In this document: piece by piece, positions 39,001 through 48,000 of the stretch | How the letters are laid out: each line of letters starts with the position of its first letter | Numbering within the stretch: the stretch's first letter is position 1 | IMG/VR virus record: IMGVR_UViG_2721755660_000001 | DNA: 64,000 nucleotides | Reading direction: 5' to 3' (one strand) | Origin: a virus | Lineage: Duplodnaviria; Heunggongvirae; Uroviricota; Caudoviricetes | Position numbers: made by a program

Positions 39001-42000
39001 CCCGATCGAGACTGCTACGGCCACCACGGTTGTTAGCGGCACATACTCCGGCGGGCAGATTGCGGTAAAAATTATCAAGCAGGCTGAGTTTGATTACTTC
39101 ATGGGTCTGGTCCTGCCGCACGCCGTTACTTTTACGATTAACGTCACCTACAGCACGCCAACCGGCAACGTAACGCAGGATGTCGATTTCTCCGGCACGC
39201 TGATATCGGCTGTCGAAACAAACGACGGCGCGGTGGTTAACCCGGTCCGGTGGTACACATTCACGATGGGGGATCTAATTGGCCCTCCTGACGTGCCGGC
39301 AACGGCGACTATTAACACGACGAAGTTCATCCTTAACGATAACGAAGCGCTAGTGGTAGGCCCGTTCTTCTCGCCGGTCGAATCTGCCCAGTTATGGCTG
39401 CACACTCAGGTGCAGCTGGGCGGCAAAAAGTCCGCTGACTGGAAGGTCACAATCTGGAAAATTGACGATGACTACAACCAGGTGCCGGGTACTCAGCAGA
39501 CGTTCACGTATCACCAGGGGACGCCGCACAAATCATCCAGCGAAGTGTTTTATCGCACTGACAAGCTGACGCCGACCGGCGGTTTCGGCAAGTACGCTAT
39601 TAACTTCCAGCGCACAGATAACTCGAGTGATGCCTCTATCCTGAAGGTTGAGGAGATCCACTCGGTCAACGTCAGAACCAACGTCGTGCATCCAACCGAT
39701 ACGCTGGTGCGCGTGAAGGTAAGAGCGACAGAGAACGCGCTGGGCAGTCGTGATCGCAAATACAACGCCCTGGTGACGCGCCAAACCATCAGTTACAACC
39801 TGACGACGCAGGCGGTGGATTACACCCTTAGGGCCTCGCGCTCGTTCGCTGATGCAGTGGCGCATACCTGGCTGATTATGGGCGAGCAGCCGGTAAGTAG
39901 CATTGACCTGTACGGACTGTACTCGATTGCCGAAAGTCTGCCGGATGAGCGCCTGGGTTACTTCGACTACACGTTTGACGACGAGAACGATTCTCTCGGC
40001 GACCGCGTGCAGGCGATCTGCAATGCAGCGTCAGTCATTGCGTACTGGGATGACGGCGTGCTGACTTTTACTCGCGATCAGAAGGTTGATTACCCGGCTG
40101 CCGTATTCAACCGGGCCAACATGAAGACGGACGAGTACAAAATGACGTACGAGGCCACTCTTCCTGGCGGCTACGACGGCGTGCAGGTGTCCTACGTTCA
40201 TCCAACCACGAACAACAAGACGTACATCAACTACCGCGTGCTGAACGGCGCTATCGTCGAGCAGGAAGCGGAGAACCCGAACATAATCGAGATAGTCGGA
40301 TTTCGTAACGAGTATCAGGCGCGGGAACGCGCACTGCGCGAAACGAAGCGCCTTATCTACTCCCGGGTGAAGATGAACGCCAAAGTATTTGAGGACGGGA
40401 TCATGCAGGTCGGTAGCGTCGTGCAGATTGCGGATATCTACGACAGTAACCAGCAGCAGGGATACATCACCGGCCGCGCCGGGAATAACTTTGATACAAG
40501 CGAGCCGATCGCGTTTACCGGCTCGATGTATGTCCTGGTGACCGACAGCCTGGGCAACCCGACTCTGCGCTATCCGGCGACGACACGCGCCGACACTAAG
40601 TACGGATTCACCGCGGCAATACCCGACATTCAACTCAATATCTGGAACGGAGACACTGTACAGCTCCCGTCGCGCTACCTCATAGCAACGGTGGAGGAGC
40701 TGAACAGCCAGCTATGGACGGTCAACAGCATCAAGCCGAACACAGATAACACGGTATCTCTGACCGTCGCGGAATATAGCGACGCCATCTACCCATAAGA
40801 CCCATCCTGACCAACATAACCCGGCCAATGAGCCGGGTTTTTTATGGAATAAATATGGCTACTACACCTACCAATCAGCCCGTACCGAGCGAGTCCCCTA
40901 GCGACCTTAAATTCAACGCAGGGAAGATTGACCAATTCGTTACCTCAATGGCTCTTCAGTACATTGATCGTCTTGGGGTATCTCATTACACCATTGAGGG
41001 GCTGAAGGAGCTTGTTCTTCAGCAGATCTACAATCTTGGTTGGAATCTGGCAGGAACATTCCAGGACGGAGCTATCGTTACGGCAGCTGGTGACCTTCTA
41101 CAGGATGAAACGACGGGTGTATGGTATCGGTGGGACGATCTCAGCACATTGCCGAAAACTGTGCCAGCAGGGTCAACTCCAGAATCGTCAGGTGGTACTG
41201 GCGAAGGAAAGTGGCAGCCTGTTGATGTTACTGACGTGCTGCGTAAAGACCTGGCAAAAACTACTGGAGCGGGGCTGTCAGGATTCTCCCCTAGCGAGAC
41301 ATATCCAGACAATACCGTAGGTGCTGCATTAGTGCATACCGACTGGTTCAGCTACATTCAGCGCAATCTCTTGGCAGAAAAGCTGAAAAAATTAAGAGAT
41401 GGGACTCTTTTCACCCTCACTTGGTATGGCGACTCCAACTCTGTACGAGAGAACGAAAACGTGCAGGCCCAGTTCAGGGTCGCGATGAATAGCGCATATG
41501 GGACAGGGAAAGTAACCACCATCAGCCGAGCTACGTCCGGATTCAGTGCGAAAGACGCCTTCGATACATATACCACTAACCACTCGGGTGATGTTTCTCT
41601 GATTAACTTCGGCACAAATGACGCTTCGTCGCAGTACGGGTATCCATTTACCGGGAACATTGCGCAGTACTTGGGCTGGATTGAAAAACTGATAGTCAGA
41701 GAGCTGACATGGGGTCACCCAGTGGTGTTGTTGACCCCGCTGCCTCTGCGCTTCGATAAGGCTTACGAGACTTACACCACATCGAGCCCAAGCGATCCAT
41801 TCCCGACAGTAAAGCGTGTCGATGCCCAGCAGATGGGTAACGCGCTGAAATATCTAGCAGACAAATATTCGGTGCCTGTTATTGATAGCGTCGAGCTAAT
41901 GGCGGGTTATCGAGACAACATTTATGCATCTACCACTCAGTCTATCAACGTAGGTACTCAGTTTGGTGATCCTGTTCACTTGGTTCTAAATGCTTCTTCG

Positions 42001-45000: not shown

Positions 45001-48000
45001 ATTATGATTACATAGAGCATGGTTTTGATTGCCAGGTAATCAACCACGGCAGGAATGCCAAGGTAGTAAGAAACCTTTTCTCGCACAGCGATGTGTATTA
45101 AGTAGACTCCGTATGTAAAAGGAGCAAGGAAAAGAATAATCTTCGAAGCAGGCTTGTCATTATCGAAATGAGTGCCGGTGACTATTAAAGTCAACATACT
45201 AGAGAAGAAGAACATGCTGACGCTAAAATCATAGGGCTTGGTATCAAACCCAAGGCTGTTGACGCTTAGCCATGTGAATGTGACTTGCATTGCAAGCGAG
45301 GCCGCAAACAACTTCCACGTGGTTGATCTCTTGATTTTAACGCGCTGAAGAAGCCCTCCCGCGATGAAGTAGCCTAGCCAAAGATAAATCTGAGGTATTG
45401 GGATAATGTTATGATACCCCGTTATTACTTTCCCCAGTTGATGCTCATACTGAGGCCAACAACAAATGACAGCTATAAATATTAAGCTATGGGCAGTTTT
45501 ATCCAATGGAATTGCATCAGTTATTACTTTAATGGCAGGGTAAACAATGTAAATGCCAAGCAGAGAATAAACAAACCATAAGTGAACAGATATGCCTGTT
45601 GGTGATTTGTATAGCAACTCGAAAAATCCACCTATTCCTTTATTGTAGAACGCATCATTATGCTGGAAATAATAGTTTATGAAAGCGTAAATGAAGAATG
45701 GAACAAGCAATGTTGCAAGTCTTTTTCTATAACCAGACCAAAGATTTTCCGTTTTACGGTTAAGCAGGAAATATCCGCTCATTATAAAGAATATAGGAAG
45801 TCCGGCTCTGACGATCGCTTGAGTAAACATCGATTGATAGACAATTAGATCAGACTGTCCGGTTTTAACCATCGTCGCATAGTCCGGGGTAACATGAATT
45901 GCTATCACTAACAGGCAGCAAATTATCCGTAAAAAATCTGCAGATACATTTCTCATGGGGATTCCATAAAATTTTTTCCTACATGATAGAGCAACCAACC
46001 CCGGTTGTGAATGGCATGAGAAATTCCATAAGCATCAGTCATAAGCATTGAGGCAGTGATCACTACTTGATCAGCAATGCCGCAATGAACTACTGTATGC
46101 ATATACAGTAATCACGGAGTGCATATCATGGGCTTTCCATCACCGGCGGCAGACTTCACAGAAAGGCGCATATCGCTCGATGCGATGCTCGTAAGCCATC
46201 CATCAGCTACGTACTACATGCGCGCAGCAGACACTCACTATCGCGCTGGTATCATGTCTGGTGCGCTTCTTCTCATCGACTCGGTATTGAAGCCATGCGA
46301 TGGTTCGCTTCTTGTTTGTGCTACTGAGGGGGAATTCAGGATAAAGCGGTACCGGACTCATCCGCGACCACACCTGGAGAATCTTGCTGATGGGAGATGG
46401 GAGGAGTTGCCGATAGACAGGGAGAACACGTCGGATGCGCTGGCGGTGTTTGGGGTGATCAAGTACATCATCAATGATGCGCGATCGGGGGAGTTTGACG
46501 ACTGCCCGGTGATGTAGCTGGAACTACTCCACCTTTTCATCAAGCCAGTCTGCCCACCACTGCATCATCTCACGACGGGTATCGAGATAGGCGGCATGGT
46601 TGTATACCGATCTGGTGCCGCCGCTAACGTGTGCCAGCTGCATTTCGATAGCATCACTGTTCCAGTGCTTCTCATTGAGCACGGTACTGAACTGATGTCG
46701 GAATCCGTGGCCGCTGGTCTGCCCTTCATAGCCAATGTTGCGGATCAGCCCAAGTACTGAGTTCTCGCTGATTGGCTTCTTTCTGTCATTTCGGCCGGGG
46801 AAACAAAGGTCGTACTGACCGGTGACATGCTTCAGAAACTTAAATAGCTCCTCAACCTGCCCGGACATCGGCACGACGTGCATCTTGCGGCCCTTCATCA
46901 CTGATGGATCAACGCTGATTAGCCTGTTTTCAAAGTCGATTCCTGACCATGCCAGCGAGCGGAGTTCGACTGTGCGCATGGCTGTATAGTGCAGCACCTG
47001 CGCCGCTATCTTAATAACAATCCAGCCGCCATAGGCATTCATTGCCCGCTGGAACTCGTGTATGCGGTGCAGGGGAAGGAAAGGGTAGTTCTCTTTCCGG
47101 TAGCCACGCATAGCGCCAGCAAGGTCTCTTGATGGGTTGTACTTAGCCCTGCCAGTTACGATCGCATAACTGAATACTTCACCACACCTACGCCTCGCCT
47201 TATCAGCGCGTTCCATTGCGCCCCTGTCTTCGAAAAGCCTGATCACCTTCAGCAGAACCATTGGTTCGACATCTTCCATCTTCAGGTGCCCAATAACTGG
47301 CAATATGTCATCCGTGAACATGCTCATCATCTCGTCAGCATATCCCTTAGACCACACCTTTGATTTGTGCGCATGCCATTCACGGAAGATATCCCCAAAA
47401 GAATCGGCGCTCTCTTCTTTCTCTTTCTTCTTTATTGCCTTCTTCTGTTCAGCCGGGTCAATGCCGGTCAGCAATTTCATCTTCGCTTCAGCCTGCCGGG
47501 CCCGGGCTTCGGTAAGAGAAATTTCAGGATAGGGTCCGATAACTAGAGTCTTTTCTTTTCTATCAAAACGGTAGCGCAGGCGCCATACCTTTTTACCCGA
47601 CGGAGGGACAAAGAGGAAAAGACCTCCAGCATTAGCCAGGCGATATGATTTTTCCGCAGGCTTGGCTGCGTCGATCTGCTTTACCGTAAGCATGTGGGCA
47701 TAAATCCATGGGTATTTTTTGATATGCCCGCAATATGCCCGCAAAAGTTTGGTGGAGTCAATACATGTCGGGTAACGTCAGGTAATTTGAAAATGGATGA
47801 TATTGTTGCTTTGATGGGGTTGTTGGTAACGTCAGGAAGTGTGAGGTAATGAGAATGTGGTGTCCCCTGCAGGAATCGAACCTGCAATTAGCCCTTAGGA
47901 GGGGCTCGTTATATCCATTTAACTAAGAGGACGTTGTTGCGTATTGATTTTGGTTGTTCACCATATGACTGATAATACCGTCTTTATGGTTTTAAAATCA

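What the first reader, a model, noticed from the sequence alone, without database searches (positions are those of the whole stretch)
40855..45956. Tailspike with SGNH esterase next to a split AT3 - SGNH lipoprotein - AT3 operon: candidate receptor acetylation/deacetylation pair
The last structural gene of prophage 1 is a tail fibre carrying a GDSL/SGNH hydrolase block. Immediately downstream, convergent and visibly AT-rich, is a three-gene operon of two AT3 acyltransferases flanking a lipoprotein with its own SGNH-like domain. In known O-antigen acetyltransferases of the OafA type the AT3 and SGNH domains are fused; here they are separate genes with a duplicated AT3. The position between tailspike and integrase is the classic serotype-conversion slot, so the prophage may acetylate a surface glycan that its own virion esterase recognises or strips. 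This split three-gene arrangement is the best candidate in the window for an undescribed system.
Basis: partly seen in the sequence, partly recalled or inferred. Interest (0 to 1): 0.72.

Follow-up and report, generated by a model that had tools for sequence, protein, structure and literature searches.

The report
Prophage cassette editing surface-sugar acetylation
Next to a tail spike that looks like a sugar de-acetylating enzyme, an E. coli prophage carries a small foreign operon of two unrelated membrane acetyltransferases (one broken by a 2-base deletion) and a rare, unclassified esterase-fold lipoprotein, which together most likely rewrite the acetyl marks on the cell's surface sugars and so change how phages see the cell.

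Summary
The genes exist as described. The window holds an E. coli siphovirus-type prophage at tRNA-Arg (argW). Its last structural gene is a tail spike with intact SGNH blocks. A convergent, AT-rich operon follows: AT3-A, then a lipoprotein, then AT3-B. Three corrections apply.

1. The two AT3 genes are not duplicates; they show no significant pairwise similarity. AT3-B carries a 2-nt deletion that removes its last ~64 residues.
3. The "split OafA" reading is not supported. AT3-A has the AT3-only signature, and 53-58% identical homologues occur without the lipoprotein. The lipoprotein also occurs alone in another prophage. Its wider family is fused to dockerins, carbohydrate-binding modules and other esterases, and three of the six non-phage loci examined are glycan-degradation loci.

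My best reading is an acetyl erase-and-rewrite lysogenic-conversion cassette, with two self-sufficient AT3 acetyltransferases plus a periplasmic de-O-acetylase. The two-piece AT3/SGNH transferase remains a live rival at about one third. An AT3-A homologue also sits beside an SGNH tail spike in a Salmonella P22-like prophage. I class this as a new variant of a known kind, of moderate interest.

The parts
40855..42852 (+). Tail spike (666 aa from ATG 40855; ORF opens at 40828). It has an N-terminal Jersey/Vi II-E1-type anchor plus Tail_spike_N, then an SGNH esterase domain (GDS203, G238, N264, D381/H384, numbered from 40828), then a C-terminal beta-rich region.
   Evidence: Pfam. PDB homologues 9occ, 9lna, 9d80 and 9d84. 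The N-terminus is ~70% identical to Vi II-E1-like Salmonella siphophage spikes and the middle part is 25-30% identical to 'tail fiber esterase/hydrolase' genes. SGNH blocks aligned to the L018 spike. PGAP calls it 'tail fiber/spike domain-containing protein'.
42858..42888 (+). GC-rich hairpin followed by UUUGCUUUU. It is the likely terminator of the tail operon and overlaps the 3' end of the restored AT3-B reading frame.
   Evidence: RNA fold -19 kcal/mol, z=-2.4; sequence read.
42869..43871 (-). AT3-B, a NolL-like AT3-only acyltransferase disrupted by a 2-nt deletion in a (TA) run at ~43064-43070. The annotated ORF is 43002-43871 (289 aa). The last ~64 codons continue in another frame to 42869.
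   Evidence: PF01757 E 4.8e-28 covering model positions 2-284 of 326. tblastn of the intact 335-aa homologue splits over two frames. DNA comparison. Adding TA restores a 334-aa protein. K-X10-H and LFMGISGY motifs. The same truncated protein, WP_032141919.1, is annotated in the four carrier genomes inspected.
43871..44899 (-). Lipoprotein (342 aa from ATG 44899). It has signal peptide MYNFRTLVMASFSALFITA|C with Asp at +2, an Ig-like (Big_2/HL_N-beta) beta-sandwich at aa ~25-89, and a DUF4886-like SGNH domain at aa ~91-310 with invariant GNS99HTxD and D287xxH290.
44892..45956 (-). AT3-A, an intact 354-aa AT3-only-type O-acyltransferase. Its stop codon overlaps the lipoprotein start by 8 nt (ATGTATAA).
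   Evidence: PF01757 E 1.1e-39 over the full model. PHROG 3333 'O-acetyltransferase' 2.9e-21. R-X10-H, FFIMSGY and RKR motifs present, fused-type motif absent. dN/dS 0.047.
45983..46011 (-). Sigma-70-like promoter (TTCACA-17-TATCAT) upstream of AT3-A, in the 162-bp gap to the divergent humD.
   Evidence: Consensus scan, 10 of 12 matches. This is a pattern match only.
46119..46517 (+). HumD-family (UmuD-like, S24) gene bordering the cassette. An S24/HumD-like gene also borders the cassette in the related loci L002, L009 and L010.
   Evidence: NCBIfam HumD 8.8e-61.
46524..47744 (-). Tyrosine integrase of the prophage (PGAP start at 47693).
   Evidence: Pfam; annotation. It is 62% identical to the integrase of the Salmonella prophage L018 at the same site.
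47858..47932 (-). tRNA-Arg(CCT), argW, the attachment site.
   Evidence: ARAGORN. The neighbours yfdC, mlaA and fadL are seen in complete genomes.

Best explanation
The three genes form a horizontally acquired lysogenic-conversion cassette. [quoted passage not shown]

AT3-A is a self-sufficient AT3-only acetyltransferase. It takes acetyl from cytoplasmic acetyl-CoA and puts it on the glycan, as Sf6 Oac does. AT3-B is a second, unrelated AT3-only acetyltransferase for another position or sugar. In this E. coli lineage it was recently knocked out by a 2-nt deletion.

The lipoprotein is tethered to the inner membrane by its Asp+2 signal and held off the membrane by an Ig-like domain. I take it to be a DUF4886-type SGNH carbohydrate esterase that strips a pre-existing O-acetyl group.

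The net effect is 'erase and rewrite'. The lysogen loses the acetyl pattern that acetyl-dependent phages need. Such phages may include the prophage's own kind, whose tail spike is an SGNH esterase like G7C gp63.1. The lysogen gains a new acetyl pattern instead.

Shown here: gene content, folds, motifs, the frameshift, purifying selection, and modular occurrence of the parts. Inferred: the substrate, the direction of the lipoprotein's reaction, and the exclusion phenotype. That the cassette is a glycan-acetylation module I hold at about 0.85. The esterase role of the lipoprotein I hold at about 0.45-0.5.
For: Cassette and slot:
- GC is 0.41 against 0.54 for the phage body, the operon is convergent to the tail spike, and it lies next to humD-int-argW. 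A promoter-like site is present.
- All three genes are under purifying selection against a 78%-identical lineage, with dN/dS 0.05-0.12.
- In that lineage the phage has decayed to a frameshifted tail-spike stub near sbcB, yet the three genes are intact.

AT3-A is self-sufficient:
- It has the AT3-only signature and lacks the fused-type motif, exactly like its 53-58% identical homologues that lack any lipoprotein neighbour.

The lipoprotein is an esterase:
- It has an SGNH fold with an invariant Ser99/Asp287/His290.
- Profile-linked relatives are DUF4886 proteins fused to dockerin, CBM_4_9, CHB_HEX_C, SASA esterase and alpha/beta-hydrolase esterase domains. None of 10 long relatives has an AT3 domain.
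- Relatives sit beside GH78, GH43/BNR and GH97/pectate-lyase/AXE1 genes.
- The lipoprotein stands alone between a P22-type tail spike and humD in L002.

Location:
- The lipobox is present, with Asp+2 in all AT3-A-linked copies, and two Cys residues are invariant. Inner-membrane retention by the +2 rule is established knowledge for E. coli.

Precedents:
- G7C gp63.1 needs O-acetylated O-antigen, and non-acetylated mutants are resistant (PMC10743462).
- Prophage epsilon15 abolishes O-acetylation as part of conversion (PMC9558356).
- Sf6 oac lies next to int (reference in PMC9558356).
Against: - An esterase and an acetyltransferase in one translationally coupled operon risk a futile cycle unless they differ in regiospecificity.
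- The AT3-A/lipoprotein pair is co-inherited with a conserved 8-nt overlap in three lineages (87/77% and 69/59% identity), while AT3-B recombines independently.
- The lipoprotein is also paired with a third, unrelated AT3 in L010.
- In known systems that pair a membrane acyl-translocase with a periplasmic SGNH protein (PatA/B, AlgI/J/X, OafA/B, OatA), the SGNH part is the transferase (PMC9487903, PMC9558356).
- SGNH esterase families have repeatedly given rise to transferases, so family-level inference is weak.
- Two distant relatives sit in polysaccharide biosynthesis clusters.
- No substrate is known. The carriers include at least two O serogroups, O168 and O22 (PMC7175801).
- In E. coli the cassette is partly decaying: AT3-B is frameshifted in the four carrier genomes inspected and has the same sequence in all six, and an IS3 element sits inside the lipoprotein gene in strain 154.
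Confidence: 0.47

Rival explanations
1. AT3-A and the lipoprotein form a natural two-piece O-acetyltransferase. AT3-A carries acetyl across the inner membrane and hands it to Ser99 of the inner-membrane-tethered SGNH lipoprotein, which then acetylates the glycan. This would work like fused OafA/OafB or like PatA/PatB. AT3-B would be an independent AT3-only enzyme.
For: - The gene order is AT3 then SGNH, with an 8-nt stop/start overlap conserved in three lineages and parallel divergence of the pair.
- The lipoprotein is also paired with an unrelated AT3 in L010.
- Asp+2 inner-membrane retention occurs exactly in the AT3-A-linked copies.
- The triad is intact.
- WecH (AT3-only) can feed PatB in trans, and reviewers explicitly ask whether AT3-only enzymes have SGNH partners (PMC9558356).
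Against: - AT3-A lacks the motif specific to SGNH-coupled AT3 domains and is indistinguishable in key motifs from homologues that have no lipoprotein.
- The lipoprotein occurs with no AT3 in L002.
- No AT3-DUF4886 fusion was seen among sampled relatives; the fusions and contexts found are those of hydrolytic esterases.
- The L010 and L002 lipoproteins lack Asp+2.
- There is no PF19040 hit.
Confidence: 0.33
2. The cassette targets a glycan other than O-antigen, such as enterobacterial common antigen, colanic acid, a capsule or periplasmic glucans. Alternatively, the lipoprotein acts on a non-glycan ester.
For: - The prophage is found in strains of at least two O serogroups, O168 and O22 (PMC7175801).
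- AT3 enzymes modify ECA and periplasmic glucans too (PMC9558356).
- The tail-spike anchor is of the Vi II-E1 type, whose phages target a capsule (my own knowledge).
Against: - The slot, the argW site and phage-borne AT3 genes are classically linked to O-antigen conversion (PMC9558356).
- The lipoprotein's relatives are associated with carbohydrate-active genes.
Confidence: 0.12
3. In these E. coli hosts the cassette is a decaying, functionally irrelevant remnant.
For: - AT3-B is frameshifted in the four carrier genomes inspected and has the same sequence in all six.
- An IS3 insertion splits the lipoprotein gene in strain 154.
- The prophage occurs in only 6 of 5426 complete genomes.
Against: - AT3-A and the lipoprotein are intact in 5 of 6 genomes.
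- dN/dS is 0.05-0.12, including the post-frameshift part of AT3-B, so that lesion is recent.
- The cassette is kept intact where the phage itself has decayed.
Confidence: 0.08

Closest known systems
Sf6 Oac and other phage-borne AT3-only O-antigen acetyltransferases (OacB/C/D)
   Same: It is an AT3-only membrane acyltransferase of about 340 aa. It is carried by a temperate phage next to the integrase/att end and close to the tail spike. It has the R/K-X10-H and FFxxSG motifs, and AT3-A has an RKR element where Oac has RxxR (PMC9558356, PMC7448272).
   Different: No detectable sequence similarity to any phage-record AT3 except weak (22-35%) hits to Vibrio, Listeria, Bacillus, Staphylococcus and unclassified phage records. 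Here there are two unrelated AT3 genes plus an SGNH lipoprotein, which Oac loci lack.
OafA/OafB (Salmonella) and OatA: fused AT3-SGNH O-acetyltransferases
   Different: These are separate genes, with no 11th TM helix or linker. The SGNH is anchored by a lipid instead. The AT3 lacks the GG-F/Y-xGV-D motif of fused proteins. The SGNH is DUF4886-like rather than PF19040. The parts occur independently.
PatA/PatB/Ape1 (O-acetylpeptidoglycan cluster) and AlgI/AlgJ/AlgX
   Same: It is an operon combining a membrane acyl-translocase with periplasmic SGNH-like proteins. The OAP cluster shows that a transferase and an esterase for the same polymer can be co-encoded (PMC9487903).
   Different: The translocase here is AT3, not MBOAT. 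The SGNH belongs to neither the DUF459/PatB nor the AlgX family. The target is not known to be peptidoglycan or alginate. The cassette is phage-borne.
Esterase tail spikes: G7C gp63.1 (4qnl), SFP21A Gp09 (9lna), Vi-phage spikes
   Same: The tail spike has an anchor domain followed by an SGNH domain with all catalytic blocks. G7C shows that such spikes deacetylate O-antigen and need the acetyl group for infection (PMC10743462).
   Different: Sequence identity of the catalytic part to any characterised spike is only ~22-30%. The Pfam score is below cutoff. Activity and substrate are untested. Here the spike sits in a temperate siphovirus-type prophage.
DUF4886 (PF16227; structure 4i8i, Bacteroides uniformis)
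   Different: The E. coli protein itself does not hit PF16227. It has a lipoprotein signal and an Ig-like domain and is prophage-borne. DUF4886 has no member of known function (PMC9487903).
Epsilon15 lysogenic conversion (loss of O-acetylation in Salmonella group E1)
   Same: A prophage removes an O-acetyl determinant from the host O-antigen as part of conversion (PMC9558356).
   Different: Epsilon15 is thought to use inhibitors of the host acetyltransferase. Here the proposed agent is a periplasmic esterase, and that is an inference.

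Membership tests
AT3 acyltransferase (PF01757) | Pfam PF01757 hit above the gathering score | tested here: met
   AT3-A scores 136.8 bits and AT3-B 98.6 bits, against a cutoff of 31.
AT3 acyltransferase (PF01757) | R/K-X10-H motif in TMH1 and an FFxISG-like motif in TMH2 (PMC7448272) | tested here: met
   AT3-A has RIICCLLVIAIH and FFIMSGY. AT3-B has KGVAIFLVVWGH and LFMGISGY.
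AT3 acyltransferase (PF01757) | Complete ten-helix core | tested here: not met
   This applies to AT3-B in this window. The 2-nt deletion truncates the protein at residue ~270 of 334, and the Pfam match stops at model position 284 of 326. AT3-A covers positions 2-324 of 326.
OafA/OafB-type fused AT3-SGNH O-antigen acetyltransferase | AT3 and SGNH in one polypeptide, joined by an 11th TM helix and a structured linker | tested here: not met
   They are separate ORFs in different frames with an 8-nt overlap, and the SGNH protein has its own lipoprotein signal peptide.
OafA/OafB-type fused AT3-SGNH O-antigen acetyltransferase | GG-F/Y-xGV-D/P/V motif after TMH1 that replaces the long TM1-2 loop of unfused AT3s (PMC7448272) | tested here: not met
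   The motif is absent. There are 34 residues (AT3-A) and 27 residues (AT3-B) between the TM1 His and the FFxxSG motif.
OafA/OafB-type fused AT3-SGNH O-antigen acetyltransferase | SGNH domain of the 'fused to AT3' type (PF19040) | tested here: not met
OafA/OafB-type fused AT3-SGNH O-antigen acetyltransferase | SGNH domain transfers acetyl to the glycan rather than hydrolysing it | not testable with these tools
   This needs enzyme assays.
SGNH hydrolase superfamily / DUF4886 | Alpha/beta/alpha SGNH fold | tested here: met
SGNH hydrolase superfamily / DUF4886 | Block I Ser nucleophile and Block V DxxH | tested here: met
   G97-N98-S99 and D287/H290 are invariant in 18 sequences down to 28% identity.
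SGNH hydrolase superfamily / DUF4886 | Block II Gly and Block III Asn of the oxyanion hole | tested here: inconclusive
   No invariant Gly or GxND was found. The position after strand 2 is C129 followed by Gly, Asn or Ser, and after strand 3 it is T-[ILVM]-[QE]-[PT]-[FYHW]. No coordinates were available to check.
SGNH hydrolase superfamily / DUF4886 | Pfam PF16227 hit | tested here: not met
   The window protein has no hit. Relatives reached by profile score 17.8-36.8 bits against a cutoff of 26.7.
Bacterial inner-membrane lipoprotein | Signal peptide with a lipobox Cys, and Asp at +2 (Lol avoidance) | tested here: met
   The sequence MYNFRTLVMASFSALFITA-C-DN is seen directly. The Cys is conserved in 17 of 18 relatives, and Asp+2 is present in all AT3-A-linked copies. 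Actual localisation was not tested.
Esterase (deacetylase) tail spike of the G7C gp63.1 type | Virion-anchor domain followed by an SGNH domain with catalytic blocks | tested here: met
   Tail_spike_N. Anchor homology. GDS203, G238, N264 and D381xxH384 are conserved against a GDSL-positive spike.
Esterase (deacetylase) tail spike of the G7C gp63.1 type | Significant SGNH profile score, or a confident structure | tested here: inconclusive
   Lipase_GDSL_2 scores 26 bits, below the 32.9 cutoff. The single-sequence AF2 model failed with pLDDT 35.
Esterase (deacetylase) tail spike of the G7C gp63.1 type | Deacetylates the host glycan, and acetylation is required for adsorption | not testable with these tools
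   This needs LPS chemistry and adsorption assays.
Serotype-converting prophage module | A compositionally foreign insert at the tail-spike/integrase end of a tRNA-integrated prophage that encodes glycan-modifying enzymes | tested here: met
   The same slot is used in L002, L010 and L018.
Serotype-converting prophage module | Changes the O-antigen structure or serotype of the lysogen | not testable with these tools
   This needs serology or NMR of lysogen against cured strain.

The most novel reading that the evidence does not exclude
AT3-A and the lipoprotein are a natural, separately encoded AT3/SGNH O-acetyltransferase pair. This would be the first such pair described. It would give the first function to the DUF4886-like branch of SGNH proteins. 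It would also provide a ready-made genetic system (AT3-A with or without the lipoprotein, alongside lipoprotein-less AT3-A homologues) to answer the open question of whether and how AT3-only enzymes use periplasmic partners.
Probability: 0.33. Interest if true: 0.75.

Novelty: new variant of a known kind. Interest (0 to 1): 0.5.

Why it matters
Phage-borne O-antigen acetyltransferases and esterase tail spikes are each known. A lysogen-expressed periplasmic SGNH lipoprotein sitting between them is not.

If it is an esterase, it would be a new way for a prophage to erase a receptor determinant, and the first function for a DUF4886-like protein. If it is a transferase, it would be the first natural two-gene AT3/SGNH system and would speak to an open question raised in the AT3 literature (PMC9558356).

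Either way, the natural series of cassettes offers unusually clean comparative material:
- lipoprotein alone;
- AT3 alone;
- AT3 plus lipoprotein;
- AT3 plus lipoprotein plus a second AT3.

It also shows that acetylation and de-acetylation genes repeatedly travel beside esterase tail spikes in enterobacterial prophages.

Tried and rejected
Searches and models that led nowhere:
- Megablast of the region against 50,697 phage records found no match. tblastn of the lipoprotein against the same records found no match.
- An IMG/VR scan with the family alignment confirmed no relatives.
- The GTDB genome scan returned only one distant Bacteroidales locus.
- Sequence search of the lipoprotein against the PDB gave only noise. 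NCBIfam gave nothing for the tail spike, the lipoprotein or AT3-A.
- A single-sequence AlphaFold model of the tail-spike C-terminal part failed (pLDDT 35) and was not used.
- The afdb50 fold library was unavailable. BFVD held only virion SGNH and Ig-like proteins, with no comparable lipoprotein.
- Two frame errors in my own coordinates were corrected.
- A literature search found no report of a prophage-encoded periplasmic esterase used in conversion, nor of a natural split AT3/SGNH pair.

Ideas tested and rejected:
- I looked for an AT3-DUF4886 fusion that would link the two families. None was found among 10 long relatives.
- 'Duplicated AT3' is rejected because there is no pairwise similarity.
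- 'The cassette always accompanies an esterase tail spike' is rejected. L002 and L010 pair the lipoprotein with a different tail spike that has no SGNH hit; their receptor-binding domains are 86% identical to each other.
- Restriction of the prophage to a single O serogroup is not supported. The carriers include O168 and O22 (PMC7175801).

Full report
**What is there.** The window is Escherichia coli chromosome. The 5.3-kb region is at least 99.9% identical to 6 of 5,426 complete genomes and absent from 50,697 phage records. It lies at the right end of a siphovirus-type prophage with terminase, DUF1073 portal-like protein, capsid, tape measure and TipJ genes. The prophage is integrated at tRNA-Arg(CCT), argW, next to yfdC, mlaA and fadL.

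The gene order is:
- tail spike, 40855-42852 (+);
- a terminator hairpin;
- AT3-B, 42869/43002-43871 (-);
- a lipoprotein, 43871-44899 (-);
- AT3-A, 44892-45956 (-);
- a promoter-like site at 45983-46011;
- humD (+), int (-) and the tRNA.

The three-gene block has 41% GC against 54% for the phage body.

**Tail spike.**
- Residues 8-168 are ~70% identical to the anchor of Vi II-E1/Jersey-like Salmonella siphophage spikes. Residues 77-132 match Tail_spike_N.
- The Lipase_GDSL_2 hit (aa 210-365) is below Pfam's cutoff, at 26 against 32.9 bits.
- All four catalytic blocks (GDS203, G238, GxN264D, D381xxH384) line up with a Salmonella P22-type spike whose GDSL_2 hit is significant at 48 bits.
- A single-sequence AlphaFold model was useless, with pLDDT 35.
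- I accept the spike as an SGNH esterase-type spike. Its activity is untested.

**The two AT3 genes.**
- Both hit PF01757 strongly and carry the R/K-X10-H and FFxxSG motifs.
- They are not duplicates of each other. BLASTP between them gives E=0.049.
- AT3-B is NolL-like and is broken. Compared with an intact 335-aa homologue, the reading frame shifts at ...HTLVIY|ITQTF... because two bases are missing from a TA run (window GTTATATATAACTCAG). Re-inserting TA restores a 334-aa protein.
- The same truncated product, WP_032141919.1, is annotated in the four carrier genomes I inspected.
- dN/dS of the part after the frameshift is still 0.115, so the lesion is recent.

**The lipoprotein.**
- PGAP starts it at Met42. 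The conserved MYNFR N-terminus and the 8-nt overlap with the AT3-A stop (ATGTATAA) in related loci argue for Met34 (ATG 44899). That start gives a proper signal peptide and the lipobox LFITA|C, with Asp at +2.
- Pfam sees only an Ig-like N-terminal domain (HL_N-beta/Big_2) and no SGNH domain.
- GNS99, D287 and H290 are invariant across 18 sequences down to 28% identity, as are two cysteines.
- The close family is very small: nine 90%-identity clusters in 5.8 billion proteins. A profile reaches ~3,500 relatives, and the sampled ones sit at the PF16227 (DUF4886) threshold. DUF4886 has no characterised member (PMC9487903).

**Comparative anatomy.** This is the decisive part. Related loci show the parts are modular:
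- AT3-A + lipoprotein + intact AT3-B, at 87/77/75% identity, found in 8 contigs.
- AT3-A + lipoprotein + an AT3-B that is 96% identical over the 115 residues on the contig, while its two partners are only 69/59% identical. AT3-B therefore recombines independently, and AT3-A and the lipoprotein travel together.
- A third, unrelated AT3 + lipoprotein next to a tail spike with a Tail_spike_N anchor and no SGNH hit.
- The lipoprotein alone, between a humD homologue and a P22-type tail spike whose receptor-binding domain is 86% identical to the previous one.
- AT3-A homologues (53-58% identical, 343 aa) with no lipoprotein. One is in a Salmonella P22-like prophage at the same yfdC/argW site, next to a Head_binding+GDSL esterase tail spike. 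Another is in an E. coli prophage next to an unclassified 804-aa convergent gene.

In the first lineage the phage has decayed to a frameshifted stub of the same tail-spike type next to sbcB, yet all three cassette genes are intact. dN/dS is 0.05-0.12 for all three genes. The genes are therefore functional and host-beneficial in at least some lineages.

**Mechanism.** Two readings compete for the lipoprotein.

It is favoured by the conserved translational coupling, the co-inheritance with AT3-A, the pairing with a second AT3 type, and the Asp+2 inner-membrane signal. It is also favoured by the general rule that a membrane acyl-translocase plus a periplasmic SGNH protein makes a transferase (PMC9487903, PMC9558356).

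Four tests go the other way:
1. AT3-A lacks the GG-F/Y-xGV-D motif that marks SGNH-coupled AT3 domains. It has the long TM1-TM2 loop of AT3-only enzymes, identical to its lipoprotein-less homologues (criteria from PMC7448272).
2. Both partners exist alone in the same slot.
3. None of ten long relatives is fused to AT3. Instead they are fused to dockerin, CBM_4_9, CHB_HEX_C, a SASA sialate esterase and an alpha/beta-hydrolase esterase.
4. Relatives lie beside GH78, GH43/BNR and GH97/pectate-lyase/AXE1 genes. Two others lie in polysaccharide biosynthesis clusters.

I therefore favour, at about 0.47 against 0.33, an erase-and-rewrite cassette. In it AT3-A (and formerly AT3-B) add acetyl groups as Oac does. 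The inner-membrane-tethered SGNH lipoprotein removes a pre-existing acetyl group from the glycan before export.

This fits phage logic. G7C's esterase spike needs O-acetylated O-antigen, and acetyl-less mutants are resistant (PMC10743462). Epsilon15 conversion also abolishes O-acetylation, by other means (PMC9558356). The substrate, the direction of catalysis and the exclusion phenotype are all inferred.

**Caveats.**
- The glycan is unknown.
- The carriers include serogroups O168 and O22 (PMC7175801).
- In the O22:H8 strain an IS3 element splits the lipoprotein gene.
- The L002 and L010 lipoproteins lack Asp+2, which is awkward for both readings.

**Novelty.** Phage AT3 acetyltransferases, esterase tail spikes and the conversion slot are all known. 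The lysogen-expressed DUF4886-like SGNH lipoprotein, and its modular association with AT3 genes, are not. I found no report of either in the literature searched. I rate it a new variant of a known kind, with interest 0.5.

Noticed in passing
window 43064-43070 (inside AT3-B): The AT3-B lesion is loss of one TA unit from a short (TA) run. The annotated product is the same in the four carrier genomes inspected, and PGAP does not flag it as a pseudogene. Slippage-type reversion is conceivable but the run is short.
   Followed up: yes
L023 (E. coli O22:H8 strain 154) 6072-8412, equivalent to window 43871-44875: An IS3-family element is inserted in the lipoprotein gene in this one carrier. O22 O-antigen is natively O-acetylated, so counter-selection of an esterase is a tempting speculation. 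It is untested.
   Followed up: partly
window 44875 versus 44899: RefSeq starts the lipoprotein at Met42, which leaves an 11-residue pre-Cys peptide. The conserved MYNFR start (Met34) overlapping the AT3-A stop gives a normal lipoprotein signal peptide. The database start is probably mis-called.
   Followed up: yes
window 48053-64000: A second, lambdoid-type prophage lies on the other side of the tRNA. It carries an integrase, DUF551, Ead/Ea22, RecT plus YqaJ, a CI-like repressor, and a PstI/BsuBI-type restriction-modification pair at 59523-61942. The four complete genomes I inspected have yfdC directly after the tRNA instead.
   Followed up: partly
L018 8189-8635 (Salmonella enterica prophage): A 148-aa gene with no family hit sits between the AT3-A homologue and the esterase tail spike, where the E. 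coli phage has the lipoprotein. Its function is unknown.
   Followed up: partly
L005-L008 (metagenome/SRA contigs), e.g. L008 3037-3755 and 4294-4665: The intact three-gene cassette survives next to a frameshifted C-terminal stub of the same tail-spike type and the chromosomal sbcB gene. This is a domesticated remnant of a decayed prophage.
   Followed up: yes
window 46119-46517; L002 3825-4214; L009 689-1006; L010 194-499: A HumD/UmuD-like S24 gene flanks the cassette in several otherwise different prophages. In L009 and L010 the match is only to the HumD N-terminus, and a YedK/SRAP-like gene lies beside it in L009. The slot 'tail spike | glycan-modifying insert | humD-like gene' therefore seems to be a conserved recombination hotspot.
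   Followed up: partly
L013 8001-9116 (Vibrio diabolicus chromosome): This is the closest non-enterobacterial relative of the lipoprotein (43% identity, Ig-like plus SGNH). It is an orphan chromosomal gene with no AT3, glycosidase or phage neighbours.
   Followed up: no
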